A stretch of 54,680 nt of DNA, taken from positions 1 through 54,680 of the forward strand of contig JAUCBJ010006165.1 in NCBI GenBank assembly GCA_032718475.1. The letters are read 5' to 3'. How positions within the stretch are numbered: position 1 is the first letter of the stretch; every line of letters begins with the position of its first letter. The position numbers and the translations under genes were made by a program. This DNA is from Nemertoderma westbladi (taxonomy: Eukaryota; Animalia; Xenacoelomorpha). Under the pieces are notes generated by a model. It saw only the letters and a program-made list of their open reading frames with translations, was not told where the DNA came from and made no database searches. Shown piece by piece: positions 9,914 to 42,168 of the stretch.

Positions 9914-10046
9914 CTATAGAAATAAAGTGTTAATAACAATAAGTAGAGATCCAACATTCTTATTAAACCAGTGAATAGTTACCGGTATATATTCAGTGGT
10001 AATTGTTACTACTACTAGTATCGGCATGCTGCATTGCAGCTGCATT

Positions 10047-12340: not shown

Positions 12341-12506
12341 CAATTAATCCGTCTTTTGCATCAGTTAAGGCACTTTTTGTGTCGCTAGCAGAATTTATTG
12401 AAGATCCTGCCTTCTTGTGAGCCTCTTCCACTGCCAGACGAAGTAAGTTCCCGTTGTCATGGATACCAAATTCCAAGTCAATGTATTCCGGACTGCCAAC
12501 AATTAG
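12341..12506 (-). CDS. NEK10: NEK10 internal exon
   Basis: ttttcag|CTA...ATTG|gttagt. Encodes LIVGSPEYIDLEFG...; 166 nt, phase 0 to 1, consistent with both neighbours. Confidence 0.8.
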
Positions 12507-12664
12507 CTGAAAACATAGGAAAATAGTGAATTTCTGATATATTGATTTTGTTTATAGGAAATTAATGGCAATTTTTTATCCCCCGGTGTTAAGTGATAGA
12601 ATGTGCCCTTGTGTGATACATTAATTAACTGTTGAATATCTTTATACAGACAAAATAGACTCAC

Positions 12665-12844
12665 CTTTCGAACCTCAGCCTTGAGACTAATGACCCCGCA
12701 GTGGGGGGAGAATAAAGCACGTTTAAGCAGTTCCACTACCCGTCGCCTGGGGTCGTGAGCTAACGTTGGTGGTAATTGGCTGATGTAGACCAGCTGATGG
12801 ATCATAAGCAGCATATCGATAATGGGGTCGTTGATTTGCCGTAA
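12665..12844 (-). CDS. NEK10: NEK10 internal exon (conserved C-terminal block)
   Basis: ccatag|TTA...AAG|gtgagt. LRQINDPIIDMLLMIHQLVYISQLPPTLAHDPRRRVVELLKRALFS resembles NEK10 VRQISDPIQQILIQLHKIIYITQLPP; 180 nt. Confidence 0.92.
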
Positions 12845-13433
12845 CTATGGTAACAATAAAAATGATTGATAGCGAGTATTTGATTTTCATACAAAATTTT
12901 GGAAGATTTATCAGTCATTACCAATTCAATCAAATAGATCAACTTCATGTTCTAGAATACTTATATAATATTCGGTTAGTACACAGTAATTTATAATAAC
13001 TGTTTAAGTATCATTATTATTTACTATTCTATTTACAATATTGAAATGTTCTTGGTTGTGAAGATTCTTTATTTTATAATTCTATTTACTATTTTCAATC
13101 AAATTTGTTATGAAAAAATAGTAGGTAGCGGCCACCTGTACCATAAAAAAAGCTCATATCACCTCGGACGTGTTATAAGTCCTCGGCTTCGCCTCGGACG
13201 TTATAACAGTCCTTGGACGAAATAATAGTTACTCGTACAAAATATCCGTACAAAATAACAAATAACAGTTCAATAAAGATAGGTAGCGGACACCTGTACC
13301 ATAAAAAAAGCTAACAACAGCTACATTTGGTACTCAAATATAATACAATTCAAATATACTTATTAAAATGTAAATAATAATTGAAAGGGTGGTTGTGGGG
13401 GAGGGATGTATTCTGCAGCATGTGCTCACTAAC

Positions 13434-13642
13434 CTTACTCTGGGAGATAGACAGTGTTGGTCCCGAGCTGGGTCTACTACTGTTGCTTGTCTGACTCATG
13501 GTACGTCTGTTGCCCCTGATGGTAGACCCAGATGGGGGGCGGGGTATAGTAGGGGGGAGGTGGGAGAGAAGGCCGGTCGAGGGCCCGATAAAGGGGGAGG
13601 TTGGAACGGATGGGAGAGAGATCAGCTGTTGTTGGGGTATGG
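13434..13642 (-). CDS. NEK10: NEK10 internal exon (Pro/Ser-rich linker)
   Basis: ttttcag|CC...AAG|gttagt; 209 nt, phase 1 to 0; ends ...TLSISQSK. Confidence 0.85.
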
Positions 13643-13779
13643 CTGAAAACAATTAATATTTATTAACAACTATTTCTTTTATAAAAAAAATAGTTAAAAT
13701 TTAATTTAATTTAATTTATTTAATAAGTATTTTTCATTATAAAATAATGAAAAATATGACAGACTACCTACAAACTTAC

Positions 13780-14060
13780 CCTCGAGATTGAGTGCGAGTG
13801 GCGGCCGTTTGGTCTTCCCAGATCGCCCGGTACGCAGGGCTGTAGGCTCGCTACTTACTGAATCCTCCGCGCCCAGACTGTCTTCGACAGCCGACAGACC
13901 CCCACTGACAGCCGCGCCAGGCAGACCCGACAGACTGTTGGACCTGGGAGGCCAGTTGCTAGGCGACGATAGTTCCATGCGGTGGTTATCCTGCTTTTCT
14001 TGGCTGGCTACAAACAGTCTGTGGTAATTGGCCATATTGCGACTCCACTCTACATAATGC
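13780..14060 (-). CDS. NEK10: NEK10 internal exon
   Basis: tttatag|G...GAGG|gtaagt; HYVEWSRNMANYHRL...; 281 nt, phase 2 to 1. Confidence 0.85.
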
Positions 14061-14498
14061 CTATAAATAAATAATACGAAAAAGTCAATTTTGTCAGTTT
14101 TTTTAACCCATATTATAATTTTAAAAATTAGTTGGGATATCTTTAATAATAGGAAGATAATATCATTAAATAAAAATTAAGCATAGCTTTCAGGTAATAC
14201 CAAATCCATGATTATCCTAGAAAAAACGTAAATTGGCTTTTTCTAATTAATTTTATTTAATTGAGACCCGGGAGTGGCTAACAGTAAACACCTATCTTAA
14301 ATAAAGTAAATAATAAAGTAAAAAAAAATAGATAAAAAAAAAGTTGTAAATAGGTCGACCTCGGCCCAATATCGTCCCTTGTTGTACCTTACTGACCTCG
14401 CTCGCTGTGCTCGGAAGGTGAATAAACAGATATCGAGACGAGCAGTATATAAAGAGATTTTATTTACTAAACAATAAAGTGTTATAAAGTTTCCGTAC

Positions 14499-14648
14499 CT
14501 CTGGGTCCGCCGTCTCTCTTTCTCTAACTTTTTCTCCAAACACTTTTGATTGGTTCTCAGCGAGTCAGCATGACTCATTATGACGTCAGCGATGATCCCA
14601 CCCAGTCCAGTAATATCAGGTCGATCTTCAGGTTCTGGGGTTATACAT
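14499..14648 (-). CDS. NEK10: NEK10 exon (kinase subdomain XI and coiled coil)
   Basis: taacag|A...AG|gtacgg. CITPEPEDRPDI...LEKKLEKERRRTQR, the latter being a NEK10-diagnostic motif; 150 nt. Confidence 0.93.
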
Positions 14649-14926: not shown

Positions 14927-15527
14927 CACCAAGGGTCTAATAGTTAGTTTATAAGATATTATGACGTCACCAACCGTCTAATAGTTTCTAAGATAATATT
15001 ATGACGTCACCAACCGTCTAATAGTTTCTAAGATAATATTATGACGTCACCAACCGTCTAATAGTTTCTAAGATAATATTATGACGTCACCAATCGTCTA
15101 ATAGTTTCTAAGATATTATGACGTCACCATCCGTATAATAGTTTTTCTAAGTTGTTATGACGTCACCAACGTTCTAATAGTTTCTAATATATTATGACAT
15201 TACCAACCGTCTAATAGTTAGTTTATAAGATATTATGACGTCACCAACCGTCTAATAGTTTCTAAGATAATATGACGTCACCAACGTTCTAATAGTTTCT
15301 AATATATTATGACATTACCAACCGTCTAATAGTTAGTTTATAAGATATTATGACGTCACCAACCGTCTAATAGTTTCTAAGATAATATGACGTCACCAAT
15401 GTTCTAATAGTTTCTATTATATTATGACATTACCAAACGTCTAACAGTTTCTAAGATATTATGACGTCACCCCAGCCGTATAAAAATTTCTAAGATATTA
15501 TGACGTCACCAACCGTCTAATAGTTTC
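14927..15527 (-). repeat. 37-41 bp minisatellite x~15 derived from the 5' splice site of NEK10 exon 15514-15714
   Basis: The minus-strand unit GAAACTATTAGACG|GTTGGTGACGTCATAATATCTTA equals the last 14 exon nt plus the first 23 intron nt. Confidence 0.9.
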
Positions 15528-15714
15528 ATCGATTTTCATTGAGTATTTTCCCTCTATAAGCGGCTCGTAATCTCCCTCTACGATTCTCGGGGCCACCGCT
15601 AGGATGTTGGTCCCCTGGAACGGCGGCTGTAGTCGACACATCTGGTACAGCAGACACCCCATAGACCAGATGTCCGCCTTCTCTCCGTAAGGCTGATGTT
15701 GGATAATCTCTGGA
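15514..15714 (-). CDS. NEK10: NEK10 exon (kinase subdomains VIII-X)
   Basis: atttag|T CCA GAG...AGA CG|gttggt. PEIIQHQPYGEKADIWSMGCLLYQMCRLQPPFQGTNILAVAPRIVEGDYEP; 201 nt, phase 2 to 2. Confidence 0.95.
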
Positions 15715-16042
15715 CTAAATAAATAAAATCATAAGATACAATAATTTTGAATCGAAATACAACTAGAAACAATTATGAATGGGTCACCAGTTGGGCGATA
15801 GGTCAACTGTAATCAGCTGATATTTGCGTTAATTTTCCAAATATGAAGAGGTTTTGGAGCTACCGGTAACCAGGAGGATATATCGGCTGGTTATGGTTCT
15901 GTCCAATAGAGTTTTCCATATTTGGTGGTGCTATCATTTCTTTATTAGATATACAGTTATAGATATATTATATATAACATACATTTAGTATTAGATAATC
16001 TCACGAAGTTTTGTGCAACAAAAATAATTTCGCAACCACTAC

Positions 16043-17077
16043 ACCTTGGTGTAGAGGTTGCATTGAAGTCACATCTCCAGTAGGTCGTGGGTTCGATCCT
16101 CACATGGGCAGGGCAGTTTTCGTTTCGGAATGAATGCTTTAAAGGGGCCAGCCAGGGCGCATCTCTGCCTTGCATCCTTAAGTGGTAGTCCTTAATGAGT
16201 ACTAGAGTTTCCTCTGGGGAGTAAATTTCTGGGGGGACCGCACTGGAAATAAGTCGTCAGACTTTGTGCGTAATCCCTCTATTAGGCACAATGAGTTTAG
16301 AGATTTCATTGCCTCCACTCTCTCAGAAGTCGCCCATAGTGTCACTGTTGAGCCAATGCTCCAGTCCCTCACTGGTGAGACCTTCGTTCATCGCTCAACA
16401 TCAACTGACCAGCTGGCCCGTCTAGATGTATCTGCTTGTGGGTTTTGGGGAAACCGATTTCAAAGAACTTCCATTGATGTGTCGGTCTTCAACCCTCTCG
16501 CCGCCTCCTACGTCTCCATGGATTCGGACGCTGTCTACCGCCACAACGAGAACCGCAAGGTCCTCAAATATGAGGAACGTTTAAGGGAGGTTGAACATTC
16601 AACCTTTACTCCCTTCATCCTGTCGGCTTACGGTGGCATGGGCCCATCGGCAAGCCAGTTCGTGAAGAGGCTGTCGATGAAGTTGAGCGACAAACGAAGC
16701 GTCCCGTACTCAGAGTGTGTTGTCTGGGTGAGGCGCAACCTGACCTTCGCTCTACTTCAGTCGGCGCTGCTCTGGTTACGTGGGTGCCGTTCTGCAGCCA
16801 GGCGGCCAGTCAAAGTGACTTGGACTGAGGCAGCCATCGTGATGGCGAATGCGGAGGTGGAACCGCAAAATATATATATTTAAACTATCTATTGGCAAGT
16901 CAGCTGGTGGTGGGTTTATTTTATCCGTGTGCGTGTGTGTGTGTGTGTGTATATCGATGTCATGTTCGCTATTGTTCGTTTGAAAGTTTTTTAACTATTG
17001 TAAATAAAATAAGGATTGGTTTCTTGAAAAAAAAACCTGGCCTAGCGGCCGAAGAAAATTTACTTTACTTTACTTCG
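16043..17077 (+). mobile_element. tRNA-derived SINE (head/body ~16043-16277, tail ~17037-17077) interrupted by a CRE-like fragment
   Basis: Pol III A box tggtgtagagg and B box ggttcgatcc. A central gccttgcatcct...aatgagtac resembles a conserved SINE core. A (tttac)n tail resumes after the insertion. Confidence 0.65.
16275..17036 (+). mobile_element. 5'-truncated CRE-like non-LTR retrotransposon (restriction-like endonuclease domain, 3' UTR, poly-A)
   Basis: ORF 16266-16883 has RHN...VEP...RLD...IDV...K..KY...PFILSAYGGMG, the RLE signature of CRE-type elements. It is followed by (gt)n, aataaa and an A-run ending at 17036. Confidence 0.75.
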
Positions 17078-17424
17078 TAGGGTGAAAAAAGTACACTTAA
17101 TTTGGTCTCGTTTTCGATTGGATCAAGTACTTTGGACTGAGTATGTTGGTTGTAGACAAAAAAGTAGGCCATCTATATTTAACAAGGGTGATTCTGTATC
17201 CATTCATCCAATCGCAAGGGAGACGTAATTAATACGTTTTTAATGACCAATAACAAATTTTTCGAAAATGATCACTACTTCAAATAATTATTCTCTGCTG
17301 AGCAAAATAATTCAATTTATTGCGCAAATTAATTAATTTTGCTGGGCAAACCAAATATTTCTGGGGAGAAATAAAATGTAGTGAGTTTTAATACTTAATG
17401 TAAGGCATAATCGATGACGATGGT

Positions 17425-20400
17425 GTATTTAATTGCACCTACCAGCAGTATTTAATTGGACTTACCAGCAGTATTTAATTGGACCTACCAGCAGTATTTA
17501 ATTGGACCTACCAGCAGTATTTAATTGGACCTACAAGCAGTATTTAACTGGACCTACAAGCAGTATTTAATTGGACTTACCAGCAGTATTTAATTGGACC
17601 TACCAGCAGTATTTAATTGGACCTACCAGCAGTATTTAATTGGACCTACCAGCAGTATTTAATTGGACCTACCAGCAGTATTTAATTGGACCCACCAGCA
17701 GTATTTAATTGGACTTACCAGCAGTATTTAATTGGACTTACCAGCAGTATTTAATTGGACCTACCAGCAGTATTTAATTGGACCTACCAGCAGTATTTAA
17801 TTGGACCTACAAGCAGTATTTAATTGCACCTACCAGCAGTATTTAATTGGACCTACAAGCAGTATTTAATTGCACCTACCAGCAGTATTTAATTGGACCT
17901 ACCAGCAGTATTTAATTGGACCTACCAGCAGTATTTAATTGGACCCACCAGCAGTATTTAATTGGACCTACCAGCAGTATTTAATTGGACTTACCAGCAG
18001 TATTTAATTGGACCTACCAGCAGTATTTAATTGGACCTACCAGCAGTATTTAATTGGACCTACCAGCAGTATTTAATTGGACCTACCAGCAGTATTTAAT
18101 TGGACCTACCAGCAGTATTTAATTGGACCTACCAGCAGTATTTAATTGGACCCACCAGCAGTATTTAATTGGACCTACCAGCAGTATTTAATTGGACTTA
18201 CCAGCAGTATTTAATTGGACCTACCAGCAGTATTTAATTGGACCTACCAGCAGTATTTAATTGGACCTACCAGCTTTATTTAATTGGACCTACCAGCAGT
18301 ATTTAATTGGACTTACCAGCAGAATTTAATTGGACCTACCAGCAGTATTTAATTGGACCTACCAGCAGTATTTAATTGGACCTACAAGCAGTATTTAATT
18401 GCACCTACCAGCAGTATTTAATTGGACCTACCAGCAGTATTTAATTGGACCTACCAGCAGTATTTAATTGGACTTACCAGCAGTATTTAATTGGACCTAA
18501 CGGCAGTATTTAATTGGACCTACCAGCAGTATTTAATTGGACCTACCAGCAGTATTTAATTGGACCTACCAGCAGTATTTAATTGGACCTACCAGCAGTA
18601 TTTAATTGGACCTACCAGCAGTATTTAACTGGACCTACCCGCAGTATTTAATTGGACCCACCAGCAGTATTTAATTGGACCTACCAGCAGTATTTAATTG
18701 GACCTACAAGCAGTATTTAATTGAACCTTCAAGCAGTATTTAATTGGACCTACAAGCAGTATTTAATTGCACCTACCAGCAGTATTTAATTGGACCTACC
18801 AGCAGTATTTAATTGGACCCACAAGCAGTATTTAATTGGACCTACCAGCAGTATTTAATTGGACCCACAAGCAGTATTTAATTGGACCTACCAGCAGTAT
18901 TAAATTGGACCCACCAGCAGTATTTAATTGGACCTACCAGCAGTATTTAATTGGACCCACCAGCAGTATTTAATTGGACCCACCAGCAGTATTTAATTGG
19001 ACCCACCAGCAGTATTTAATTGGACCTACCAGCAGTATTTAATTGGACCTACAAGCAGTATTTAATTGAACCTACAAGCAGTATTTAATTGGACCTACAA
19101 GCAGTATTTAATTGCACCTACCAGCAGTATTTAATTGGACCTACCAGCAGTATTTAATTGGACCCACAAGCAGTATTTAATTGGACCTACCAGCAGTATT
19201 TAATTGGACCCACAAGCAGTATTTAATTGGACCTACCTACCAGCAGTATTTAATTGGACCTACAAGCAGTATTTAATTGGACCTACCAGCAGTATTTAAT
19301 TGGACCCACAAGCAGTATTTAATTGGACCCACCAGCAGTATTTAATTGGACCCACCAGCAGTATTTAATTGGACCTACCAGCAGTATTTAATTGGACCTA
19401 CCAGCAGTATTTAATTGGACCTACCAGCAGTATTTAATTGGACCTACCAGCAGTATTTAATTGGACCTACCAGCAGTATTTAATTGGACCTACCAGCAGT
19501 ATTTAATTGAACCTACAAGTAGTATTTAATTGGACCTACCAGCAGTATTTAATTGGACCCACAAGCAGTATTTAATTGGACCTACCAGCAGTATTTAATT
19601 GGACCTACAAGCAGTATTTAATTGCACCTACCAGCAGTATTTAATTGGACCTATCAGCAGTATTTAATTGCACCTACCAGCAGTATTTAATTGGACCTAC
19701 CAGCAGTATTTAATTGAACCTACAAGCAGTATTTAATTGGACCTACCAGCAGTATTTAATTGGACCTACAAGCAGTATTTAATTGCACCTACCAGCAGTA
19801 TTTAATTGGACCTATCAGCAGTATTTAATTGCACCTACCAGCAGTATTTAATTGGACCTACCAGCAGTATTTAATTGGACCTACCAGCAGTATTTAATTG
19901 CACCTACCAGCAGTATTTAATTGGACCTACAAGCAGTATTTAATTGAACCTACAAGCAGTATTTAATTGGACCTACAAGCAGTATTTAATTGCACCTACC
20001 AGCAGTATTTAATTGAACCTACAAGCAGTATTTAATTGGACCTACCAGCAGTATTTAATTGGACCTACCAGCAGTATTTAATTGGACCTACAAGCAGTAT
20101 TTAATTGCACCTACCAGCAGTATTTAATTGGACCTATCAGCAGTATTTAATTGGACCTATCAGCAGTATTTAATTGCACCTACCAGCAGTATTTAATTGG
20201 ACCTACCAGCAGTATTTAATTGGACCTACAAGCAGTATTTAATTGCACCTACCAGCAGTATTTAAATGAACCTACAAGCAGTATTTAATTGGACCTACAA
20301 GCAGTATTTAATTGCACCTACCAGCAGTATTTAATTGGACCTATCAGCAGTATTTAATTGGACCTATCAGCAGTATTTAATTGGACCTACCAGCAGTATT

Positions 20401-23400
20401 TAATTGCACCTACCAGCAGTATTTAATTGGACCTATCAGCAGTATTTAATTGCACCTACCAGCAGTATTTAATTGGACCTATCAGCAGTATTTAATTGCA
20501 CCTACCAGCAGTATTTAATTGGACCTACAAGCAGTATTTAATTGGACCTACCAGCAGTATTTAATTGCACCTACCAGCAGTATTTAATTGAACCTACAAG
20601 CAGTATTTAATTGGACCTACAAGCAGTATTTAATTGCACCTACCAGCAGTATTTAATTGGACCTATCAGCAGTATTTAATTGGACCTATCAGCAGTATTT
20701 AATTGCACCTACCAGCAGTATTTAATTGGACCTATCAGCAGTATTTAATTGCACCTACCAGCAGTATTTAATTGGACCCACAAGCAGTATTTAATTGAAC
20801 CTACAAGCAGTATTTAATTGGACCTACCAGCAGTATTTAATTGGACCTACCAGCAGTATTTAATTGCACCTACCAGCAGTATTTAATTGGACCTACAAGC
20901 AGTATTTAATTGAACCTACAAGCAGTATTTAATTGGACCTACAAGCAGTATTTAATTGCACCTACCAGCAGTATTTAATTGAACCTACAAGCAGTATTTA
21001 ATTGGACCTACAAGCAGTATTTAATTGCACCTACCAGCAGTATTTAATTGGACCTATCAGCAGTATTTAATTGCACCTACCAGCAGTATTTAATTGGACC
21101 TACCAGCAGTATTTAATTGGACCTACAAGCAGTATTTAATTGCACCTACCAGCAGTATTTAATTGGACCTATCAGCAGTATTTAATTGCACCTACCAGCA
21201 GTATTTAAATGGACCTACCAGCAGTATTTAATTGAACCTACAAGCAGTATTTAATTGGACCTACCAGCAGTATTTAATTGCACCTACCAGCAGTATTTAA
21301 TTGGACCTACCAGCAGTATTTAATTGGACTTACCAGCAGTATTTAATTGCACCTACCAGCAGTATTTAATTGCACCTACCAGCAGTATTTAATTGCACCT
21401 ACCAGCAGTATTTAATTGAACCTACAAGCAGTATTTAATTGGACCTACCAGCAGTATTTAATTGGACCCACAAGCAGTATTTAATTGGACCTACCAGCAG
21501 TATTTAATTGGACCTACAAGCAGTATTTAATTGCACCTACCAGCAGTATTTAATTGGACCTATCAGCAGTATTTAATTGCACCTACCAGCAGTATTTAAT
21601 TGGACCCACAAGCAGTATTTAATTGGACCTACCAGTAGTATTTAATTGGACCTACAAGCAGTATTTAATTGGACCCACCAGCAGTATTTAATTGGACCCA
21701 CCAGCAGTATTTAATTGGACCTACCAGCAGTATTTAATTGGACCTACCAGCAGTATTTAATTGGACCTACCAGCAGTATTTAATTGGACCTACCAGCAGT
21801 ATTTAATTGGACCTACCAGCAGTATTTAATTGGACCTACCAGCAGTATTTAATTGAACCTACAAGCAGTATTTAATTGGACCTACCAGCAGTATTTAATT
21901 GGACCCACAAGCAGTATTTAATTGGACCTACCAGCAGTATTTAATTGGACCTACAAGCAGTATTTAATTGCACCTACCAGCAGTATTTAATTGGACCTAT
22001 CAGCAGTATTTAATTGCACCTACCAGCAGTATTTAATTGGACCTACCAGCAGTATTTAATTGAACCTACAAGCAGTATTTAATTGGACCTACCAGCAGTA
22101 TTTAATTGGACCTACAAGCAGTATTTAATTACACCTACCAGCAGTATTTAATTGGACCTATCAGCAGTATTTAATTGCACCTACCAGCAGTATTTAATTG
22201 GACCTACCAGCAGTATTTAATTGGACCTACCAGCAGTATTTAATTGCACCTACCAGCAGTATTTAATTGGACCTACAAGCAGTATTTAATTGAACCTACA
22301 AGCAGTATTTAATTGGACCTACAAGCAGTATTTAATTGCACCTACCAGCAGTATTTAATTGAACCTACAAGCAGTATTTAATTGGACCTACCAGCAGTAT
22401 TTAATTGGACCTACCAGCAGTATTTAATTGGACCTACAAGCAGTATTTAATTGCACCTACCAGCAGTATTTAATTGGACCTATCAGCAGTATTTAATTGG
22501 ACCTATCAGCAGTATTTAATTGCACCTACCAGCAGTATTTAATTGGACCTACCAGCAGTATTTAATTGGACCTACAAGCAGTATTTAATTGCACCTACCA
22601 GCAGTATTTAATTGAACCTACAAGCAGTATTTAATTGGACCTACAAGCAGTATTTAATTGCACCTACCAGCAGTATTTAATTGGACCTATCAGCAGTATT
22701 TAATTGGACCTATCAGCAGTATTTAATTGCACCTACCAGCAGTATTTAATTGGACCTATCAGCAGTATTTAATTGCACCTACCAGCAGTATTTAATTGGA
22801 CCTACAAGCAGTATTTAATTGGACCTACCAGCAGTATTTAATTGGACCTACCAGCAGTATTTAATTGAACCTACAAGCAGTATTTAATTGCACCTACAAG
22901 CAGTATTTAATTGCACCTACAAGCAGTATTTAATTGGACTTACCAGCAGTATTTAATTGGACCTACCAGCAGTATTTAATTGGACCTACCAGCAGTATTT
23001 AATTGCACCTACCAGCAGTATTTAATTGGACCTACAAGCAGTATTTAATTGAACCTACAAGCAGTATTTAATTGGACCTACAAGCAGTATTTAATTGCAC
23101 CTACCAGCAGTATTTAATTGAACCTACAAGCAGTATTTAATTGGACCTACAAGCAGTATTTAATTGCACCTACCAGCAGTATTTAATTGGACCTATCAGC
23201 AGTATTTAATTGCACCTACCAGCAGTATTTAATTGGACCTACCAGCAGTATTTAATTGGACCTACAAGCAGTATTTAATTGCACCTACCAGCAGTATTTA
23301 ATTGGACCTATCAGCAGTATTTAATTGCACCTACCAGCAGTATTTAATTGGACCTACCAGCAGTATTTAATTGAACCTACAAGCAGTATTTAATTGGACC

Positions 23401-26400
23401 TACCAGCAGTATTTAATTGCACCTACCAGCAGTATTTAATTGGACCTACCAGCAGTATTTAATTGGACTTACCAGCAGTATTTAATTGCACCTACCAGCA
23501 GTATTTAATTGCACCTACCAGCAGTATTTAATTGGACTTACCAGCAGTATTTAATTGCACCTACCAGCAGTATTTAATTGCACCTACCAGCAGTATTTAA
23601 TTGGACCTATCAGCAGTATTTAATTGCACCTACCAGCAGTATTTAATTGGACCTACCAGCAGTATTTAATTGGACCTATCAGCAGTATTTAATTGCACCT
23701 ACCAGCAGTATTTAATTGGACCTATCAGCAGTATTTAATTGCACCTACCAGCAGTATTTAATTGGACCTACCAGCAGTATTTAATTGGACCCACCAGCAG
23801 TATTTAATTGAACCTACAAGCAGTATTTAATTGGACCTACCAGCAGTATTTAATTGCACCTACCAGCAGTATTTAATTGGACCTACCAGCAGTATTTAAT
23901 TGGACTTACCAGCAGTATTTAATTGCACCTACCAGCAGTATTTAATTGGACCTACCAGCAGTATTTAATTGGACCTATCAGCAGTATTTAATTGCACCTA
24001 CCAGCAGTATTTAATTGGACCTATCCGCAGTATTTAATTGAACCTACAAGCAGTATTTAATTGGAACTACCAGCAGTATTTAATTGCACCTACCAGCAGT
24101 ATTTAATTGCACCTACCAGCAGTATTTAATTGGACCTATCAGCAGTATTTAATTGCACCTACCAGCAGTATTTAATTGGACCTATCAGCAGTATTTAATT
24201 GCACCTACCAGCAGTATTTAATTGCACCTACCAGCAGTATTTAATTGAACCTACAAGCAGTATTTAATTGGACCTACCAGCAGTATTTAATTGCACCTAC
24301 CAGCAGTATTTAATTGGACCTACCAGCAGTATTTAATTGGACCTACCAGCAGTATTTAATTGCACCTACCAGCAGTATTTATTTGCACCTACCAGCAGTA
24401 TTTAATTGCACCTACCAGCAGTATTTAATTGAACCTACAAGCAGTATTTAATTGGACCTACCAGCAGTATTTAATTGGACTCACAAGCAGTATTTAATTG
24501 AACCTACAAGCAGTATTTAATTGGACCCACAAGCAGTATTTAATTGAACCTACAAGCAGTATTTAATTGGACCTACCAGCAGTATTTAATTGGACCTACC
24601 AGCAGTATTTAATTGGACCTACAAGCAGTATTTAATTGGACCCACAAGCAGTATTTAATTGAACCTACAAGCAGTATTTAATTGGACCTACCAGCAGTAT
24701 TTAATTGGACCTACAAGCAGTATTTAATTGGACCTACCAGCAGTATTTAATTGGACCTACAAGCAGTATTTAATTGCACCTACCAGCAGTATTTAATTGG
24801 ACCTACAAGCAGTATTTAATTGCACCTACCAGCAGTATTTAATTGGACCTACAAGCAGTATTTAATTGGACCCACAAGCAGTATTTAATTGAACCTACAA
24901 GCAGTATTTAATTGGACCTACCAGCAGTATTTAATTGGACCTACAAGCAGTATTTAATTGGACCTACCAGCAGTATTTAATTGGACCTACAAGCAGTATT
25001 TAATTGCACCTACCAGCAGTATTTAATTGGACCTACAAGCAGTATTTAATTGCACCTACCAGCAGTATTTAATTGGACCTACAAGCAGTATTTAATTGGA
25101 CCCACAAGCAGTATTTAATTGAACCTACAAGCAGTATTTAATTGGACCTACCAGCAGTATTTAATTGGACCTACAAGCAGTATTTAATTGGACCTACCAG
25201 CAGTATTTAATTGGACCTACAAGCAGTATTTAATTGCACCTACCAGCAGTATTTAATTGGACCTACAAGCAGTATTTAATTGGACCCACAAGCAGTATTT
25301 AATTGAACCTACAAGCAGTATTTAATTGGACCCACAAGCAGTATTTAATTGAACCTACAAGCAGTATTTAATTGGACCTACCAGCAGTATTTAATTGGAC
25401 CTACCAGCAGTATTTAATTGGACCTACAAGCAGTATTTAATTGCACCTACCAGCAGTATTTAATTGGACCTATCAGCAGTATTTAATTGCACCTACCAGC
25501 AGTATTTAATTGGACCTACCAGCAGTATTTAATTGAACCTACAAGCAGTATTTAATTGGACCTACCAGCAGTATTTAATTGGACCTACAAGCAGTATTTA
25601 ATTGCACCTACCAGAAGTATTTAATTGGACCTATCAGCAGTATTTAATTGCACCTACCAGCAGTATTTAATTGGACCTACCAGCAGTATTTAATTGAACC
25701 TACAAGCAGTATTTAATTGGACCTACCAGCAGTATTTAATTGAACCTACAAGCAGTATTTAATTGGACCTACCAGCAGTATTTAATTGGACCCACAAGCA
25801 GTATTTAATTGGACCTACCAGCAGTATTTAATTGGACCTACAAGCAGTATTTAATTGCACCTACCAGCAGTATTTAATTGGACCTATCAGCAGTATTTAA
25901 TTGCACCTACCAGCAGTATTTAATTGGACCTACCAGCAGTATTTAATTGGACCTATCAGCAGTATTTAATTGCACCTACCAGCAGTATTTAATTGGACCT
26001 ATCAGCAGTATTTAATTGCACCTACCAGCAGTATTTAATTGGACCTACCAGCAGTATTTAATTGAACCTACAAGCAGTATTTAATTGGACCTACCAGCAG
26101 TATTTAATTGCACCTACCAGCAGTATTTAATTGGACCTACCAGCAGTATTTAATTGGACCTACCAGCAGTATTTAATTGGACCCACCAGCAGTATTTAAT
26201 TGAACCTACAAGCAGTATTTAATTGGACCTACCAGCAGTATTTAATTGCACCTACCAGCAGTATTTAATTGGACCTACCAGCAGTATTTAATTGGACCTA
26301 CCAGCAGTATTTAATTGCACCTACCAGCAGTATTTAATTGGACCTACCAGCAGTATTTAATTGGACCTATCAGCAGTATTTAATTGCACCTACCAGCAGT

Positions 26401-29400
26401 ATTTAATTGGACCTATCCGCAGTATTTAATTGAACCTACAAGCAGTATTTAATTGGAACTACCAGCAGTATTTAATTGCACCTACCAGCAGTATTTAATT
26501 GCACCTACCAGCAGTATTTAATTGGACCTATCAGCAGTATTTAATTGCACCTACCAGCAGTATTTAATTGGACCTATCAGCAGTATTTAATTGCACCTAC
26601 CAGCAGTATTTAATTGCACCTACCAGCAGTATTTAATTGAACCTACAAGCAGTATTTAATTGGACCTACCAGCAGTATTTAATTGCACCTACCAGCAGTA
26701 TTTAATTGGACCTACCAGCAGTATTTAATTGGACCTACCAGCAGTATTTAATTGCACCTACCAGCAGTATTTATTTGCACCTACCAGCAGTATTTAATTG
26801 CACCTACCAGCAGTATTTAATTGAACCTACAAGCAGTATTTAATTGGACCTACCAGCAGTATTTAATTGGACTCACAAGCAGTATTTAATTGAACCTACA
26901 AGCAGTATTTAATTGGACCCACAAGCAGTATTTAATTGAACCTACAAGCAGTATTTAATTGGACCTACCAGCAGTATTTAATTGGACCTACCAGCAGTAT
27001 TTAATTGGACCTACAAGCAGTATTTAATTGGACCCACAAGCAGTATTTAATTGAACCTACAAGCAGTATTTAATTGGACCTACCAGCAGTATTTAATTGG
27101 ACCTACAAGCAGTATTTAATTGGACCTACCAGCAGTATTTAATTGGACCTACAAGCAGTATTTAATTGCACCTACCAGCAGTATTTAATTGGACCTACAA
27201 GCAGTATTTAATTGCACCTACCAGCAGTATTTAATTGGACCTACAAGCAGTATTTAATTGGACCCACAAGCAGTATTTAATTGAACCTACAAGCAGTATT
27301 TAATTGGACCTACCAGCAGTATTTAATTGGACCTACAAGCAGTATTTAATTGGACCTACCAGCAGTATTTAATTGGACCTACAAGCAGTATTTAATTGCA
27401 CCTACCAGCAGTATTTAATTGGACCTACAAGCAGTATTTAATTGCACCTACCAGCAGTATTTAATTGGACCTACAAGCAGTATTTAATTGGACCCACAAG
27501 CAGTATTTAATTGAACCTACAAGCAGTATTTAATTGGACCTACCAGCAGTATTTAATTGGACCTACAAGCAGTATTTAATTGGACCTACCAGCAGTATTT
27601 AATTGGACCTACAAGCAGTATTTAATTGCACCTACCAGCAGTATTTAATTGGACCTACAAGCAGTATTTAATTGGACCCACAAGCAGTATTTAATTGAAC
27701 CTACAAGCAGTATTTAATTGGACCCACAAGCAGTATTTAATTGAACCTACAAGCAGTATTTAATTGGACCTACCAGCAGTATTTAATTGGACCTACCAGC
27801 AGTATTTAATTGGACCTACAAGCAGTATTTAATTGCACCTACCAGCAGTATTTAATTGGACCTATCAGCAGTATTTAATTGCACCTACCAGCAGTATTTA
27901 ATTGGACCTACCAGCAGTATTTAATTGAACCTACAAGCAGTATTTAATTGGACCTACCAGCAGTATTTAATTGGACCTACAAGCAGTATTTAATTGCACC
28001 TACCAGAAGTATTTAATTGGACCTATCAGCAGTATTTAATTGCACCTACCAGCAGTATTTAATTGGACCTACCAGCAGTATTTAATTGAACCTACAAGCA
28101 GTATTTAATTGGACCTACCAGCAGTATTTAATTGAACCTACAAGCAGTATTTAATTGGACCTACCAGCAGTATTTAATTGGACCCACAAGCAGTATTTAA
28201 TTGGACCTACCAGCAGTATTTAATTGGACCTACAAGCAGTATTTAATTGCACCTACCAGCAGTATTTAATTGGACCTACAAGCAGTATTTAATTGCACCT
28301 ACCAGCAGTATTTAAATGAACCTACAAGCAGTATTTAATTGGACCTACAAGCAGTATTTAATTGCACCTACCAGCAGTATTTAATTGGACCTATCAGCAG
28401 TATTTAATTGGACCTATCAGCAGTATTTAATTGGACCTACCAGCAGTATTTAATTGCACCTACCAGCAGTATTTAATTGGACCTATCAGCAGTATTTAAT
28501 TGCACCTACCAGCAGTATTTAATTGGACCTATCAGCAGTATTTAATTGCACCTACCAGCAGTATTTAATTGGACCTACAAGCAGTATTTAATTGGACCTA
28601 CCAGCAGTATTTAATTGCACCTACCAGCAGTATTTAATTGAACCTACAAGCAGTATTTAATTGGACCTACAAGCAGTATTTAATTGCACCTACCAGCAGT
28701 ATTTAATTGGACCTATCAGCAGTATTTAATTGGACCTATCAGCAGTATTTAATTGCACCTACCAGCAGTATTTAATTGGACCTATCAGCAGTATTTAATT
28801 GCACCTACCAGCAGTATTTAATTGGACCCACAAGCAGTATTTAATTGAACCTACAAGCAGTATTTAATTGGACCTACCAGCAGTATTTAATTGGACCTAC
28901 CAGCAGTATTTAATTGCACCTACCAGCAGTATTTAATTGGACCTACAAGCAGTATTTAATTGAACCTACAAGCAGTATTTAATTGGACCTACAAGCAGTA
29001 TTTAATTGCACCTACCAGCAGTATTTAATTGAACCTACAAGCAGTATTTAATTGGACCTACAAGCAGTATTTAATTGCACCTACCAGCAGTATTTAATTG
29101 GACCTATCAGCAGTATTTAATTGCACCTACCAGCAGTATTTAATTGGACCTACCAGCAGTATTTAATTGGACCTACAAGCAGTATTTAATTGCACCTACC
29201 AGCAGTATTTAATTGGACCTATCAGCAGTATTTAATTGCACCTACCAGCAGTATTTAAATGGACCTACCAGCAGTATTTAATTGAACCTACAAGCAGTAT
29301 TTAATTGGACCTACCAGCAGTATTTAATTGCACCTACCAGCAGTATTTAATTGGACCTACCAGCAGTATTTAATTGGACTTATCAGCAGTATTTAATTGC

Positions 29401-32400
29401 ACCTACCAGCAGTATTTAATTGCACCTACCAGCAGTATTTAATTGCACCTACCAGCAGTATTTAATTGAACCTACAAGCAGTATTTAATTGGACCTACCA
29501 GCAGTATTTAATTGGACCCACAAGCAGTATTTAATTGGACCTACCAGCAGTATTTAATTGGACCTACAAGCAGTATTTAATTGCACCTACCAGCAGTATT
29601 TAATTGGACCTATCAGCAGTATTTAATTGCACCTACCAGCAGTATTTAATTGGACCCACAAGCAGTATTTAATTGGACCTACCAGTAGTATTTAATTGGA
29701 CCTACAAGCAGTATTTAATTGGACCCACCAGCAGTATTTAATTGGACCCACCAGCAGTATTTAATTGGACCTACCAGCAGTATTTAATTGGACCTACCAG
29801 CAGTATTTAATTGGACCTACCAGCAGTATTTAATTGGACCTACCAGCAGTATTTAATTGGACCTACCAGCAGTATTTAATTGGACCTACCAGCAGTATTT
29901 AATTGAACCTACAAGCAGTATTTAATTGGACCTACCAGCAGTATTTAATTGGACCCACAAGCAGTATTTAATTGGACCTACCAGCAGTATTTAATTGGAC
30001 CTACAAGCAGTATTTAATTGCACCTACCAGCAGTATTTAATTGGACCTATCAGCAGTATTTAATTGCACCTACCAGCAGTATTTAATTGGACCTACCAGC
30101 AGTATTTAATTGAACCTACAAGCAGTATTTAATTGGACCTACCAGCAGTATTTAATTGGACCTACAAGCAGTATTTAATTGCACCTACCAGCAGTATTTA
30201 ATTGGACCTATCAGCAGTATTTAATTGCACCTACCAGCAGTATTTAATTGGACCTACCAGCAGTATTTAATTGGACCTACCAGCAGTATTTAATTGGACC
30301 TACCAGCAGTATTTAATTGGACCTATCAGCAGTATTTAATTGCACCTACCAGCAGTATTTAATTGGACCTATCAGCAGTATTTAATTGCACCTACCAGCA
30401 GTATTTAATTGGACCTACCAGCAGTATTTAATTGAACCTACAAGCAGTATTTAATTGGACCTACCAGCAGTATTTAATTGCACCTACCAGCAGTATTTAA
30501 TTGGACCTACCAGCAGTATTTAATTGGACCCACCAGCAGTATTTAATTGAACCTACAAGCAGTATTTAATTGGACCTACCAGCAGTATTTAATTGCACCT
30601 ACCAGCAGTATTTAATTGGACCTACCAGCAGTATTTAATTGGACTTACCAGCAGTATTTAATTGCACCTACCAGCAGTATTTAATTGGACCTACCAGCAG
30701 TATTTAATTGGACCTATCAGCAGTATTTAATTGCACCTACCAGCAGTATTTAATTGCACCTACCAGCAGTATTTAATTGGACCTACCAGCAGTATTTAAT
30801 TGGACCTACCAGCAGTATTTAATTGGACCTACCAGCAGTATTTAATTGGACCCACAAGCAGTATTTAATTGGACCTACCAGTAGTATTTAATTGGACCTA
30901 CAAGCAGTATTTAATTGGACCCACCAGCAGTATTTAATTGGACCCACCAGCAGTATTTAATTGGACCTACCAGCAGTATTTAATTGGACCTACCAGCAGT
31001 ATTTAATTGGACCTACCAGCAGTATTTAATTGGACCTACCAGCAGTATTTAATTGCACCTACCAGCAGTATTTAATTGGACCCACAAGCAGTATTTAATT
31101 GGACCTACCAGTAGTATTTAATTGGACCTACAAGCAGTATTTAATTGGACCCACCAGCAGTATTTAATTGGACCCACCAGCAGTATTTAATTGGACCTAC
31201 CAGCAGTATTTAATTGGACCTACCAGCAGTATTTAATTGGACCTACCAGCAGTATTTAATTGGACCTACCAGCAGTATTTAATTGGACCTACCAGCAGTA
31301 TTTAATTGGACCTACCAGCAGTATTTAATTGAACCTACAAGCAGTATTTAATTGGACCTACCAGCAGTATTTAATTGGACCCACAAGCAGTATTTAATTG
31401 GACCTACCAGCAGTATTTAATTGGACCTACAAGCAGTATTTAATTGCACCTACCAGCAGTATTTAATTGGACCTATCAGCAGTATTTAATTGCACCTACC
31501 AGCAGTATTTAATTGGACCTACCAGCAGTATTTAATTGAACCTACAAGCAGTATTTAATTGGACCTACCAGCAGTATTTAATTGGACCTACAAGCAGTAT
31601 TTAATTGCACCTACCAGCAGTATTTAATTGGACCTATCAGCAGTATTTAATTGCACCTACCAGCAGTATTTAATTGGACCTACCAGCAGTATTTAATTGG
31701 ACCTACCAGCAGTATTTAATTGCACCTACCAGCAGTATTTAATTGGACCTACAAGCAGTATTTAATTGAACCTACAAGCAGTATTTAATTGGACCTACAA
31801 GCAGTATTTAATTGCACCTACCAGCAGTATTTAATTGAACCTACAAGCAGTATTTAATTGGACCTACCAGCAGTATTTAATTGGACCTACCAGCAGTATT
31901 TAATTGGACCTACAAGCAGTATTTAATTGCACCTACCAGCAGTATTTAATTGGACCTATCAGCAGTATTTAATTGGACCTATCAGCAGTATTTAATTGCA
32001 CCTACCAGCAGTATTTAATTGGACCTACCAGCAGTATTTAATTGGACCTACAAGCAGTATTTAATTGCACCTACCAGCAGTATTTAATTGAACCTACAAG
32101 CAGTATTTAATTGGACCTACAAGCAGTATTTAATTGCACCTACCAGCAGTATTTAATTGGACCTATCAGCAGTATTTAATTGGACCTATCAGCAGTATTT
32201 AATTGCACCTACCAGCAGTATTTAATTGGACCTATCAGCAGTATTTAATTGCACCTACCAGCAGTATTTAATTGGACCTACAAGCAGTATTTAATTGGAC
32301 CTACCAGCAGTATTTAATTGGACCTACCAGCAGTATTTAATTGAACCTACAAGCAGTATTTAATTGCACCTACAAGCAGTATTTAATTGCACCTACAAGC

Positions 32401-35400
32401 AGTATTTAATTGGACTTACCAGCAGTATTTAATTGGACCTACCAGCAGTATTTAATTGGACCTACCAGCAGTATTTAATTGCACCTACCAGCAGTATTTA
32501 ATTGGACCTACAAGCAGTATTTAATTGAACCTACAAGCAGTATTTAATTGGACCTACAAGCAGTATTTAATTGCACCTACCAGCAGTATTTAATTGAACC
32601 TACAAGCAGTATTTAATTGGACCTACAAGCAGTATTTAATTGCACCTACCAGCAGTATTTAATTGGACCTATCAGCAGTATTTAATTGCACCTACCAGCA
32701 GTATTTAATTGGACCTACCAGCAGTATTTAATTGGACCTACAAGCAGTATTTAATTGCACCTACCAGCAGTATTTAATTGGACCTATCAGCAGTATTTAA
32801 TTGCACCTACCAGCAGTATTTAATTGGACCTACCAGCAGTATTTAATTGAACCTACAAGCAGTATTTAATTGGACCTACCAGCAGTATTTAATTGCACCT
32901 ACCAGCAGTATTTAATTGGACCTACCAGCAGTATTTAATTGGACTTACCAGCAGTATTTAATTGCACCTACCAGCAGTATTTAATTGCACCTACCAGCAG
33001 TATTTAATTGCACCTACCAGCAGTATTTAATTGAACCTACAAGCAGTATTTAATTGGACCTACCAGCAGTATTTAATTGGACCCACAAGCAGTATTTAAT
33101 TGGACCTACCAGCAGTATTTAATTGGACCTACAAGCAGTATTTAATTGCACCTACCAGCAGTATTTAATTGGACCTATCAGCAGTATTTAATTGCACCTA
33201 CCAGCAGTATTTAATTGGACCCACAAGCAGTATTTAATTGGACCTACCAGTAGTATTTAATTGGACCTACAAGCAGTATTTAATTGCACCTACCAGCAGT
33301 ATTTAATTGGACCTATCAGCAGTATTTAATTGCACCTACCAGCAGTATTTAATTGAACCTACAAGCAGTATTTAATTGAACCTACAAGCAGTATTTAATT
33401 GGACCTACCAGCAGTATTTAATTGGACCTACAAGCAGTATTTAATTGCACCTACCAGCAGTATTTAATTGGACCTATCAGCAGTATTTAATTGCACCTAC
33501 CAGCAGTATTTAATTGGACCTACCAGCAGTATTTAATTGGACCTATCAGCAGTATTTAATTGCACCTACCAGCAGTATTTAATTGGACCTATCAGCAGTA
33601 TTTAATTGCACCTACCAGCAGTATTTAATTGGACCTACCAGCAGTATTTAATTGAACCTACAAGCAGTATTTAATTGGACCTACCAGCAGTATTTAATTG
33701 CACCTACCAGCAGTATTTAATTGGACCTACCAGCAGTATTTAATTGGACCTACCAGCAGTATTTAATTGGACCCACCAGCAGTATTTAATTGAACCTACA
33801 AGCAGTATTTAATTGGACCTACCAGCAGTATTTAATTGCACCTACCAGCAGTATTTAATTGGACCTACCAGCAGTATTTAATTGGACTTACCAGCAGTAT
33901 TTAATTGCACCTACCAGCAGTATTTAATTGGACCTACCAGCAGTATTTAATTGGACCTATCAGCAGTATTTAATTGCACCTACCAGCAGTATTTAATTGG
34001 ACCTATCCGCAGTATTTAATTGAACCTACAAGCAGTATTTAATTGGAACTACCAGCAGTATTTAATTGCACCTACCAGCAGTATTTAATTGCACCTACCA
34101 GCAGTATTTAATTGGACCTATCAGCAGTATTTAATTGCACCTACCAGCAGTATTTAATTGGACCTATCAGCAGTATTTAATTGCACCTACCAGCAGTATT
34201 TAATTGCACCTACCAGCAGTATTTAATTGAACCTACAAGCAGTATTTAATTGGACCTACCAGCAGTATTTAATTGCACCTACCAGCAGTATTTAATTGGA
34301 CCTACCAGCAGTATTTAATTGGACTTACCAGCAGTATTTAATTGCACCTACCAGCAGTATTTATTTGCACCTACCAGCAGTATTTAATTGCACCTACCAG
34401 CAGTATTTAATTGAACCTACAAGCAGTATTTAATTGGACCTACCAGCAGTATTTAATTGGACTCACAAGCAGTATTTAATTGAACCTACAAGCAGTATTT
34501 AATTGGACCCACAAGCAGTATTTAATTGAACCTACAAGCAGTATTTAATTGGACCTACCAGCAGTATTTAATTGGACCTACCAGCAGTATTTAATTGGAC
34601 CTACAAGCAGTATTTAATTGCACCTACCAGCAGTATTTAATTGGACCTACAAGCAGTATTTAATTGGACCCACAAGCAGTATTTAATTGAACCTACAAGC
34701 AGTATTTAATTGGACCTACCAGCAGTATTTAATTGGACCTACAAGCAGTATTTAATTGGACCTACCAGCAGTATTTAATTGGACCTACAAGCAGTATTTA
34801 ATTGCACCTACCAGCAGTATTTAATTGGACCTACAAGCAGTATTTAATTGCACCTACCAGCAGTATTTAATTGGACCTACAAGCAGTATTTAATTGGACC
34901 CACAAGCAGTATTTAATTGAACCTACAAGCAGTATTTAATTGGACCTACCAGCAGTATTTAATTGGACCTACAAGCAGTATTTAATTGGACCTACCAGCA
35001 GTATTTAATTGGACCTACAAGCAGTATTTAATTGCACCTACCAGCAGTATTTAATTGGACCTACAAGCAGTATTTAATTGCACCTACCAGCAGTATTTAA
35101 TTGGACCTACAAGCAGTATTTAATTGGACCCACAAGCAGTATTTAATTGAACCTACAAGCAGTATTTAATTGGACCTACCAGCAGTATTTAATTGGACCT
35201 ACAAGCAGTATTTAATTGGACCTACCAGCAGTATTTAATTGGACCTACAAGCAGTATTTAATTGCACCTACCAGCAGTATTTAATTGGACCTACAAGCAG
35301 TATTTAATTGGACCCACAAGCAGTATTTAATTGAACCTACAAGCAGTATTTAATTGGACCCACAAGCAGTATTTAATTGAACCTACAAGCAGTATTTAAT

Positions 35401-36475
35401 TGGACCTACCAGCAGTATTTAATTGGACCTACCAGCAGTATTTAATTGGACCTACAAGCAGTATTTAATTGCACCTACCAGCAGTATTTAATTGGACCTA
35501 TCAGCAGTATTTAATTGCACCTACCAGCAGTATTTAATTGGACCTACCAGCAGTATTTAATTGAACCTACAAGCAGTATTTAATTGGACCTACCAGCAGT
35601 ATTTAATTGGACCTACAAGCAGTATTTAATTGCACCTACCAGCAGTATTTAATTGGACCTATCAGCAGTATTTAATTGCACCTACCAGCAGTATTTAATT
35701 GGACCTACCAGCAGTATTTAATTGAACCTACAAGCAGTATTTAATTGGACCTACCAGCAGTATTTAATTGAACCTACAAGCAGTATTTAATTGGACCTAC
35801 CAGCAGTATTTAATTGGACCCACAAGCAGTATTTAATTGGACCTACCAGCAGTATTTAATTGGACCTACAAGCAGTATTTAATTGCACCTACCAGCAGTA
35901 TTTAATTGGACCTACAAGCAGTATTTAATTGCACCTACCAGCAGTATTTAATTGCACCTACCAGCAGTATTTAATTGCACCTACCCGCAGTATTTAATTG
36001 GACCTATCAGCAGTATTTAATTGCACCTACCAGCAGTATTTAATTGGACCTACCAGCAGTATTTAATTGGACCTACAAGCAGTATTTAATTGGACCTACC
36101 AGCAGTATTTAATTGCACCTACCAGCAGTATTTAATTGGACCTACCAGCAGTATTTAATTGGACCTACCAGCAGTATTTAATTGCACCTACCAGCAGTAT
36201 TTAATTGGACCTACCAGCAGTATTTAATTGCACCTACCAGCAGTATTTAATTGGACCTACCAGCAGTATTTAATTGCACCTACCAGCAGTATTTAATTGG
36301 ACCTACCAGCAGTATTTAATTGGACCTACCAGCAGTATTTAATTGGACCTACCAGCAGTATTTAATTGGACCTACCAGCAGTATTTAATTGGACCTACCA
36401 GCAGTATTTAATTGGACCTACCAGCAGTATTTAATTGGACCTACCAGCAGTATTTAATTGGACCTACCAGCAGTA
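17425..36475 (-). repeat. ~19 kb intronic 23-bp satellite (~830 copies) derived from a NEK10 5' splice site
   Basis: Plus-strand unit gtatttaattggacctaccagca. On the minus strand the unit is TACTGCTG|GTAGGTCCAATTAAA, and the first copy is the authentic junction of exon 36468-36646. Confidence 0.98.
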
Positions 36476-36646
36476 CAGCAGTGTGCCCACCATACTTCTC
36501 ATCAAAGAATTGTGGTGTTTTGTTCTTGCCAAACCGAAGTCCGTAATGGTAACTCTATCGGATTCCCCCAGGAGAATGTTACCCGGAGAAAGATCACGAT
36601 GAACTATGTGTTTTTCCTTATGTAGATAACGAATGGCTAACACAAT
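36468..36646 (-). CDS. NEK10: NEK10 exon (catalytic loop and activation segment)
   Basis: tttttcattttgtaacag|[46 protein letters not shown]...MVGTLLYC; 179 nt. TG+T joins to the next exon as YCCPE. Confidence 0.95.
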
Positions 36647-42080: not shown

Positions 42081-42168
42081 TAAATATAATTTATAGTCTT
42101 ACTAAATTAAATATAATGTTGTGGTTATATATAACTGAGCAGTATAAATATATCACTAATAGAAAACA

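What the first reader, a model, noticed from the sequence alone, without database searches (positions are those of the whole stretch)
17425..36475. A 19-kb satellite made of ~830 copies of the host gene's own 5' splice site
Seen: the NEK10 catalytic exon ends ...CTGTACTGCTG and its intron starts GTAGGTCCAATTAAA. The satellite unit is exactly these 8 exonic plus 15 intronic bases, and the array starts at the junction and fills ~92% of a 20.7-kb intron. Most units retain a GT donor, the ~8 nearest the exon are perfect copies, and some variants (plus-strand ggacttaccag) read CTG|GTAAGT, closer to the U1 consensus than the real site. Any downstream copy used as donor gives TGC TGG TAG, an immediate in-frame stop. 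Inference: the pre-mRNA carries hundreds of U1-binding decoys, yet the exons are intact. Either first-donor selection is very strict, or the array acts on expression (NMD-coupled tuning, U1 loading against premature cleavage, transcription delay). Established context: NEK10 functions in motile cilia, and satellite-filled introns are known in Drosophila Y-linked axonemal dynein genes. I do not know of a described array built from the donor itself.
Basis: partly seen in the sequence, partly recalled or inferred. Interest (0 to 1): 0.88.

Follow-up and report, generated by a model that had tools for sequence, protein, structure and literature searches.

The report
Giant splice-donor repeat in NEK10 intron
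A 23-base piece spanning an exon end and its splice signal is repeated 828 times inside an animal's NEK10 gene, and the one transcript-like contig found leaves the exon at the first, genuine signal, so this is likely a very large but tolerated example of a repeat type already known from human and lancelet genes.

Summary
Window 17425-36475 is 828 units of 23 nt (8 exonic + 15 intronic bases of a NEK10 donor); 748 of 828 keep GT, and the array fills 92% of a 20,753-nt intron. DNA contigs show the exon-side junction in two samples and the far end in one; their depth fits hundreds of copies. A 4,303-nt transcript-like contig ends its match exactly at the first donor; its join to the next exon was not shown. 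The kind is not new: human F7, CBS, 6-16, LMNB2 and PDGF minisatellites and amphioxus 'mirages' repeat their own junction, and mostly the first donor is used (PMC1557585, PMC3087553). This scan also noted such arrays on other DNA (up to about 377 copies; unchecked). What differs is size, about 30 times the largest case in the papers I read, and an ATTAAA poly(A)-type hexamer at +10 of nearly every unit. The next donor also carries a 15-copy array. Best reading: neutral runaway expansion tolerated by first-donor selection (0.7). A regulatory role is untested.

The parts
36468..36646 (-). NEK10 kinase exon (179 nt, HRD and DFG motifs), ends in phase 2 at the authentic donor CTG|GTAGGT
   Evidence: covered end to end, 0 differences, by the 4,303-nt contig of run X4
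17425..36475 (-). 828 x 23-nt array; unit = last 8 exon bases + first 15 intron bases; each unit has a donor motif and, in 818 cases, ATTAAA at +10..+15; variant patterns repeat at lags of 104, 350 and 412 units; starts and ends on the same TAC
   Evidence: exon-side junction in DNA contigs of X1, X2, X3, far end in X3
15715..17424 (-). non-array remainder of the intron (1.7 kb): high-copy dispersed repeats, a ~760-nt insertion at 16275-17036, pyrimidine-rich tract and acceptor AG
15514..15714 (-). next NEK10 exon (201 nt, phase 2-2, PE...DIWS motifs), weak donor ACG|GTTGGT; skipping it would create TG|A, a stop
   Evidence: no more diverged than the other exons
14945..15527 (-). second junction-spanning array: about 15 copies of a 37-41-nt unit containing the donor at 15514/15513, flanked by an 11-nt direct repeat
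   Evidence: its exon-side units are in DNA contigs of X2 and X3
9700..14648 (-). six further NEK10 exons (14648-14499, 14060-13780, 13642-13434, 12844-12665, 12506-12341, 9913 to the stop); open frame of 515 aa from the kinase exon to the stop; introns 137-2,427 nt
   Evidence: X4 holds 0.32 of the words of 12400-14940 against 0.31 expected from exons alone

Best explanation
The array is 828 head-to-tail copies of the NEK10 exon/intron junction that likely began as a slippage duplication between two TAC triplets 23 nt apart and likely grew by further slippage and unequal exchange, and it is likely tolerated, without a function, because the spliceosome takes the first donor. Shown: the unit, its register, the TAC at both ends, nested block duplications of up to 85 units, and a transcript-like contig that stops at the first donor. 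Inferred: the intron is older than the array; exon definition across the 179-nt exon and 5'-to-3' co-transcriptional order commit the first donor, as in F7; rare use of a later donor puts a stop in frame and would be removed by NMD; U1 bound to the 472 strong donor copies would mask the ATTAAA that each unit carries; predicted pairing between neighbouring units may hide some decoys. An array seeded on a donor can grow only into the intron and leaves the exon intact, so it survives where a wholly exonic seed would not.
For: Contig of X4: 4,303 nt, depth 243.8, matches 36468-36649 with 0 differences and stops at the first donor; X4 is exon-only there and so likely RNA. F7: only the most upstream of identical donors is used, with up to 12 monomers and with pseudo-sites improved to a consensus value of 91 (PMC1557585). 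Mirages reported not to disturb splicing. Variation sits at 5 of 23 positions that were amplified in blocks; donor-weakening variants (-1 T 249, +1 A 78, +3 G 65 units) outnumber the strengthening one (+4 A, 22), so nothing points to selection for better decoys. The region breeds arrays: tandem repeats fill 23% of the window outside this one. A coral gene model reads through at the same codon (P0073), which suggests an old intron position. All exons keep an open frame.
Against: The join 36468 to 15714 was not shown in any transcript, and only one transcript-like run was laid; contigs drop rare variants, so minor use of donors 2, 3... is not excluded (CBS and 6-16 do use their next one or two pseudo-sites). 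Published model substrates favour the downstream of two strong donors at 45 nt or more apart (PMC3413131), so tolerance of about 470 such sites over 19 kb is not trivially predicted; F7 was tested only to 12 monomers. Intronic AATAAA is counter-selected near 5' splice sites across 17 species (PMC5499120), so 821 hexamers may not be cost-free (that passage concerns AATAAA; here 818 are ATTAAA). Neutrality itself was not tested: no allele lengths, relatives or expression data.
Confidence: 0.7

Rival explanations
1. The array is a U1-dependent attenuator. Each unit pairs a U1 site with an ATTAAA 9 nt downstream; when U1 is plentiful the transcript is read through, when it is limiting the RNA is cut in the array or spliced at a later donor and lost to NMD, which would restrict or tune NEK10 expression.
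For: 821 hexamers, 43 per kb against 3.3 per kb in the gene's other intronic DNA; none lies more than 127 nt behind a strong donor copy; 207 TGTA motifs. [quoted passage not shown] Every later donor brings an in-frame stop.
Against: An ATTAAA in the first 15 nt of an AT-rich intron is an easy accident, and amplification then copies it with everything else; it is no more conserved than the rest of the unit's A/T positions. In-frame stops just inside introns are common (established knowledge). The dominant contig of X4 runs on 2,008 nt past the donor. No paper holding all five of my search terms for such a repeat was found, so there is no precedent to lean on.
Confidence: 0.12
2. The two junction arrays are a burden: the 201-nt exon, with a 20.7-kb decoy-filled intron before it and a weak, repeated donor behind it, is often mis-spliced or skipped, giving a stop at the new joint, and NEK10 output is reduced.
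For: The exon's donor is among the weaker ones of the gene by U1 pairing (-6.0 against -5.2 to -10.7 kcal/mol) and is itself repeated about 15 times; skipping gives TG|A. In F7 minigenes, pushing the first usable donor downstream raises exon skipping. The calls made here leave the question open (see Tried and rejected).
Against: The exon is intact, with canonical sites, and is not more diverged than its neighbours: identity to invertebrate homologues 0.57 against 0.69 among them, compared with 0.71/0.84, 0.56/0.61 and 0.54/0.77 for three other exons. A dominant stop-bearing mRNA should be lost to NMD (established knowledge), and the downstream exons still encode a conserved frame.
Confidence: 0.1
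3. A shorter donor minisatellite is real, but the assembler inflated it to 19 kb, or the 23-mer is a dispersed satellite that happens to touch this donor.
For: No spanning long read was available. An exact 85-unit (1,955-bp) block is repeated at lag 104, which an assembler could misplace. One of three DNA runs (X1) has only 56 times the unique depth on the units, which the simulation matches with 20-80 units. No whole genome is held, so dispersal was not searched directly.
Against: X2 and X3 show about 1,590 and about 1,900-3,240 times the unique depth on the units, against 1,365 simulated for 400 units and 3,662 for 828 (summed contig depth is no copy number, so this is an order of magnitude only). 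No run exceeds what this one locus predicts. 30 unit types form a non-periodic, nested pattern. The unit's first 8 bases are NEK10 codons and the array ends on its own microhomology, as expected for local origin.
Confidence: 0.08

Closest known systems
Human F7 intron 7 (IVS7) 37-bp VNTR (Borensztajn et al. 2006, PMC1557585; parts 1-4 of 6 read: abstract, introduction, results, most of the discussion)
   Same: First monomer spans the exon-intron boundary; the donor is repeated identically into the intron; the most upstream donor is used; stronger downstream copies exist here and were engineered there.
   Different: 5-9 monomers of 37 bp against 828 of 23 bp (19 kb) with nested block duplications; in F7 two pseudo-sites would keep the frame, here all later donors bring a stop; here each unit has an ATTAAA.
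Human CBS intron 13 (15-20 repeats), 6-16 intron 2 (25 pseudo-sites), LMNB2 (10-15 x 100 bp), PDGF intron 4 (16-18 x 81 bp), as summarised in the introduction of PMC1557585 (original papers not read)
   Same: Donor-spanning minisatellites in the 5' end of an intron.
   Different: At most 26 donors; CBS and 6-16 also use the next two pseudo-sites, which could not be measured here.
Amphioxus 'mirages' (Adh3, troponin C, globins BflGb6 and BflGb9, PGBD5; passages of PMC3087553 and PMC3902484 read; the Adh3 paper not read)
   Same: Tandem duplication of intron/exon boundaries in an invertebrate, length-unstable, reported not to disturb splicing; several per gene are possible, as with the two arrays here.
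   Different: Three to six copies in the globin cases; both donors and acceptors; this animal was not placed with any group.
Satellite-filled gigantic introns of Drosophila Y-linked genes (PMC11207136, abstract and outline only)
   Same: A long repeat-filled intron that would depend on co-transcriptional splicing; NEK10's link to motile cilia is recalled, not checked.
   Different: Hundreds of kb to Mb against 21 kb; the abstract does not describe units derived from the splice site.

Membership tests
Junction-spanning minisatellite (F7 IVS7 type / mirage) | First monomer spans an exon-intron boundary | tested here: met
   8 exonic + 15 intronic bases; exon end at 36468 from homology and from the X4 contig
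Junction-spanning minisatellite (F7 IVS7 type / mirage) | The splice signal is repeated head to tail into the intron | tested here: met
   748 of 828 units keep GT; 453 carry the identical 9-mer
Junction-spanning minisatellite (F7 IVS7 type / mirage) | The authentic (most upstream) donor is the main one used | tested here: met
   One transcript-like contig, depth 243.8, ends at 36468; one run only, its RNA nature inferred; minor donors not measurable
Junction-spanning minisatellite (F7 IVS7 type / mirage) | Regular splicing to the next exon is not disturbed | tested here: inconclusive
   The join to 15714 was not shown; the exon is intact and conserved
Junction-spanning minisatellite (F7 IVS7 type / mirage) | Length polymorphism between alleles | not testable with these tools
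   Only short-read contigs; depth differs between runs but is no copy number
Junction-spanning minisatellite (F7 IVS7 type / mirage) | Pseudo-sites become active when the first site is lost | not testable with these tools
   Needs a minigene; shown for F7
Dispersed or centromeric satellite family | Same unit at unrelated loci, total copy number above this locus | tested here: inconclusive
   No genome held; no 12-mer elsewhere in the window; summed depth not above the single-locus simulation
Drosophila Y-loop-type gigantic satellite intron | Intron of hundreds of kb to Mb | tested here: not met
   20,753 nt against the sizes in PMC11207136
NEK10 orthologue | Best hits Nek10; kinase and C-terminal exons colinear with NEK10 | tested here: met
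   long branch, no close relative among the 24 rows

The most novel reading that the evidence does not exclude
A self-shielding repeat: every 23-nt unit couples a U1-binding donor to a poly(A) signal 9 nt downstream, so the array could reach 19 kb only because its own U1 sites mask its own 800 cleavage signals, and it now works as a U1-dose switch that decides between full-length NEK10 and transcripts that are cut in the array, spliced at a later donor or missing the next exon.
Probability: 0.12. Interest if true: 0.78.

Novelty: new member of a known kind. Interest (0 to 1): 0.4.

Why it matters
As it stands it stretches a known oddity about 30-fold beyond the largest case in the papers I read (26 donors) and shows that first-donor choice can hold against about 470 equally good sites over 19 kb, although model substrates favour the downstream site beyond 45 nt. 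That makes the locus a natural extreme test of first-come against proximity models of 5' splice-site choice, and, through the ATTAAA in each unit, of U1 telescripting. If the array proved to tune NEK10, it would be a repeat-encoded U1 sensor, for which my searches found no description. The animal has no close relative among the proteins found, which limits quick follow-up.

Tried and rejected
No whole genome is held, so the 23-mer could not be searched genome-wide and the bias of arrays towards junctions could not be counted. Run search: 6 runs listed, 4 hold the stretch, no RNA holder listed by record; X4's RNA nature is my inference from exon-only cover. Unexplained hole: no X4 contig covers the exon 15714-15514 at 93% likeness, although the X4 contig runs on for 2,008 nt past the donor and X4 holds about all exon words of 12400-14940. 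This could be skipping of that exon with the inclusion path pruned from the contigs, or a record left out by the tool's filter (X2 likewise has no cover at 17140-17411 where X3 has); the tool states that a hole proves nothing, so I count it neither way. Predicting the contig's 3' end did not decide it: 9093 with the exon, 8892 without, neither just behind a canonical hexamer. No X4 contig lay on the array units at either end; not evidence, since contigs drop rare forms. X1's low depth on the units is unexplained; the array has no GATC or CTNAG site, so a restriction-based library would under-sample it, but the library is not on record. S2 shows 0 differences from the window over the unique pieces listed, so it may be the source or the same line; independence of the two DNA samples is not established. 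Second donor array as a sign of junction bias: chance that one of the 9 other arrays straddles one of 15 splice sites is 0.19 for the window and about 0.08 within the gene, so not significant. RNA structure as the discriminator: the donor 10-mer pairs with its copy in a neighbouring unit (8 units, -53.2 kcal/mol), but 38% of 200 shuffled units fold as well, and the real donor is predicted no more open than the decoys (0.002 against 0.000-0.002). The 11-nt U1 pairing energies (474 units at least as strong as the real donor) are rough; 202 of them gain only from position +7. Metagenome scan for the unit: 0 matches, uninformative for an animal. Tree: window protein on a long branch, in no supported group among 25 rows. 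Literature: 9 answered searches; some searches sought junction-spanning arrays and showed none with hundreds of copies in what I read; most subscription papers are not in the library and no supplements were opened, so a larger published case is not excluded. Papers only seen as listings are not used. Look-ups of earlier findings by place and by sequence, and one by words, were empty.

Full report
Observation. Tandem Repeats Finder gives one array at 17425-36475. Cut in register it is 828 units of 23 nt plus 3 nt, with 30 unit types; 242 units are perfect, the first 8 among them, and 748 keep the GT. On the minus strand the unit is the last 8 bases of an exon and the first 15 of its intron. The exon (36646-36468) encodes the HRD-DFG part of a kinase whose named hits are Nek10; tblastn with ten NEK10 proteins places the following exons at 15714, 14648, 14060, 12844, 12506 and 9913, and the model with one low-similarity exon at 13642 gives an open frame of 515 aa. 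The intron is 20,753 nt, 91.8% array. Any later donor includes TGG TAG, a stop.

Is it real? No genome is held. A run search with 12400-14940 listed 6 runs, 4 of them holders. DNA contigs of X1, X2 (one sample) and X3 (another sample and study) run from the exon 30 nt into the array with 0 differences, and X3 does the same at the far end. Summed contig depth on the units is about 1,590 times the unique depth in X2, 1,900-3,240 times in X3 and 56 times in X1. A simulation of unsimplified 31-mer unitigs gives 3,662 for the window's 828 units, 1,365 for 400 and 161 for 80. This depth is no copy number, but two of three runs fit hundreds of units and none exceeds what this locus alone predicts; X1 does not fit. 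The exact length needs spanning reads: an 85-unit block is repeated exactly at lag 104, and other blocks at lags 350 and 412. Either sample may be the source of the window.

Which donor is used? X4 is labelled 'DNA?' but holds 0.32 of the words of 12400-14940, where exons alone predict 0.31, and has no cover of the unique intron beside the kinase exon; I take it to be RNA. One contig of 4,303 nt, depth 243.8, matches 36468-36649 with 0 differences and continues for 2,008 nt; it leaves the genome exactly at the first donor. The join to the next exon was not shown (see Tried and rejected). That exon is intact and not more diverged than its neighbours, and skipping it would create a stop.

Origin. 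The array begins and ends on TAC, which suggests a first duplication by slippage between two TAC triplets 23 nt apart (inference). A coral gene model reads through at the same codon, so the intron position is likely older than the array. Variation is confined to 5 of 23 positions, spread by block duplication; variants that weaken the donor are far commoner than the one that strengthens it. Tandem repeats fill 23% of the rest of the window.

A feature not in the finding: ATTAAA, a poly(A)-type hexamer, lies at +10 to +15 of 818 units; with 4 AATAAA the scan counts 821 non-overlapping hexamers, 43 per kb against 3.3 per kb in the gene's other intronic DNA, none further than 127 nt from a strong donor copy. 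U1 bound at authentic or cryptic donors suppresses such signals over about 500-1,000 nt (PMC5499120, passages). The decoys may therefore shield the array's own cleavage signals. This is inference; it can explain tolerance without implying function.

Mechanism. Most likely (0.7) a neutral runaway expansion that is tolerated because the first donor is committed by exon definition and transcription order, with NMD and telescripting as safety nets. Support comes and from F7, where only the most upstream identical donor is used with up to 12 monomers and with improved pseudo-sites (PMC1557585). Against a trivial reading, two strong donors 45 nt or more apart are resolved to the downstream one in model substrates (PMC3413131, passages); the 23-nt spacing lies below that threshold for neighbours but not for distant copies. 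Rivals: a U1-dependent attenuator (0.12), a splicing burden with skipping of the next exon (0.10), an inflated or dispersed repeat (0.08).

Comparison. The defining features of the F7-type junction-spanning minisatellite, called mirage in amphioxus, are met where testable; undisturbed joining to the next exon is inconclusive. The published cases I read have 3 to 26 copies. Earlier notes of this scan describe the same kind in other genomes, up to about 377 donor copies (not checked by me, not counted as support). I recalled F7 and CBS before those look-ups (note); the term mirage came from one of the notes and was checked in two papers. NEK10's role in motile cilia and the NMD rule are recalled, not from a call.

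Verdict. Real, correctly described, a new and extreme member of a known kind. Interest 0.4, for its size, the paired U1 site and poly(A) hexamer, and the open question about the next exon.

Noticed in passing
window 42172-43533 (-): Intronless 453-aa sulfotransferase ORF (PF00685, PF13469) on the same strand as NEK10, probably nested in its upstream intron, since no earlier NEK10 exon lies in 36650-54680. Only one homologue was found, at 26% identity. A 19-nt x 30 array (41525-42083) follows 90 nt behind its stop.
   Followed up: partly
window 36647-54680: The intron upstream of the kinase exon is at least 18 kb, so this 179-nt exon sits between two very long introns while the downstream introns are 137-2,427 nt.
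   Followed up: partly
window 47282-51222 (+): BEL/Pao-type LTR retrotransposon pol, broken over several frames (protease, RT, Peptidase_A17, integrase), beginning at the end of a 33-nt x 64 array (45187-47285).
   Followed up: partly
window 52020-53984 (+): 655-aa ORF with no Pfam match, in GC-rich DNA next to the Pao element.
   Followed up: no
window 16206-17036: About 760-nt insertion inside a high-copy repeat (many contigs skip 16275-17036); its 225-aa ORF has no Pfam match but resembles, from recall, the C-terminal endonuclease region of site-specific non-LTR retroelements.
   Followed up: partly
window 40121-41247 (-): Broken LINE reverse-transcriptase fragment (PF00078).
   Followed up: partly
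window 4-3978 and 7204-7498: 43-nt x 92+ array running off the window start (97% matches) and a 33-nt x 9 array; neither touches a known exon.
   Followed up: no
window 36475-17425 (-), unit positions 3-12: The donor-spanning 10-mer is self-complementary with G-U pairs, so neighbouring units are predicted to pair; not stronger than shuffled units, but it could favour slippage or hide decoys.
   Followed up: partly
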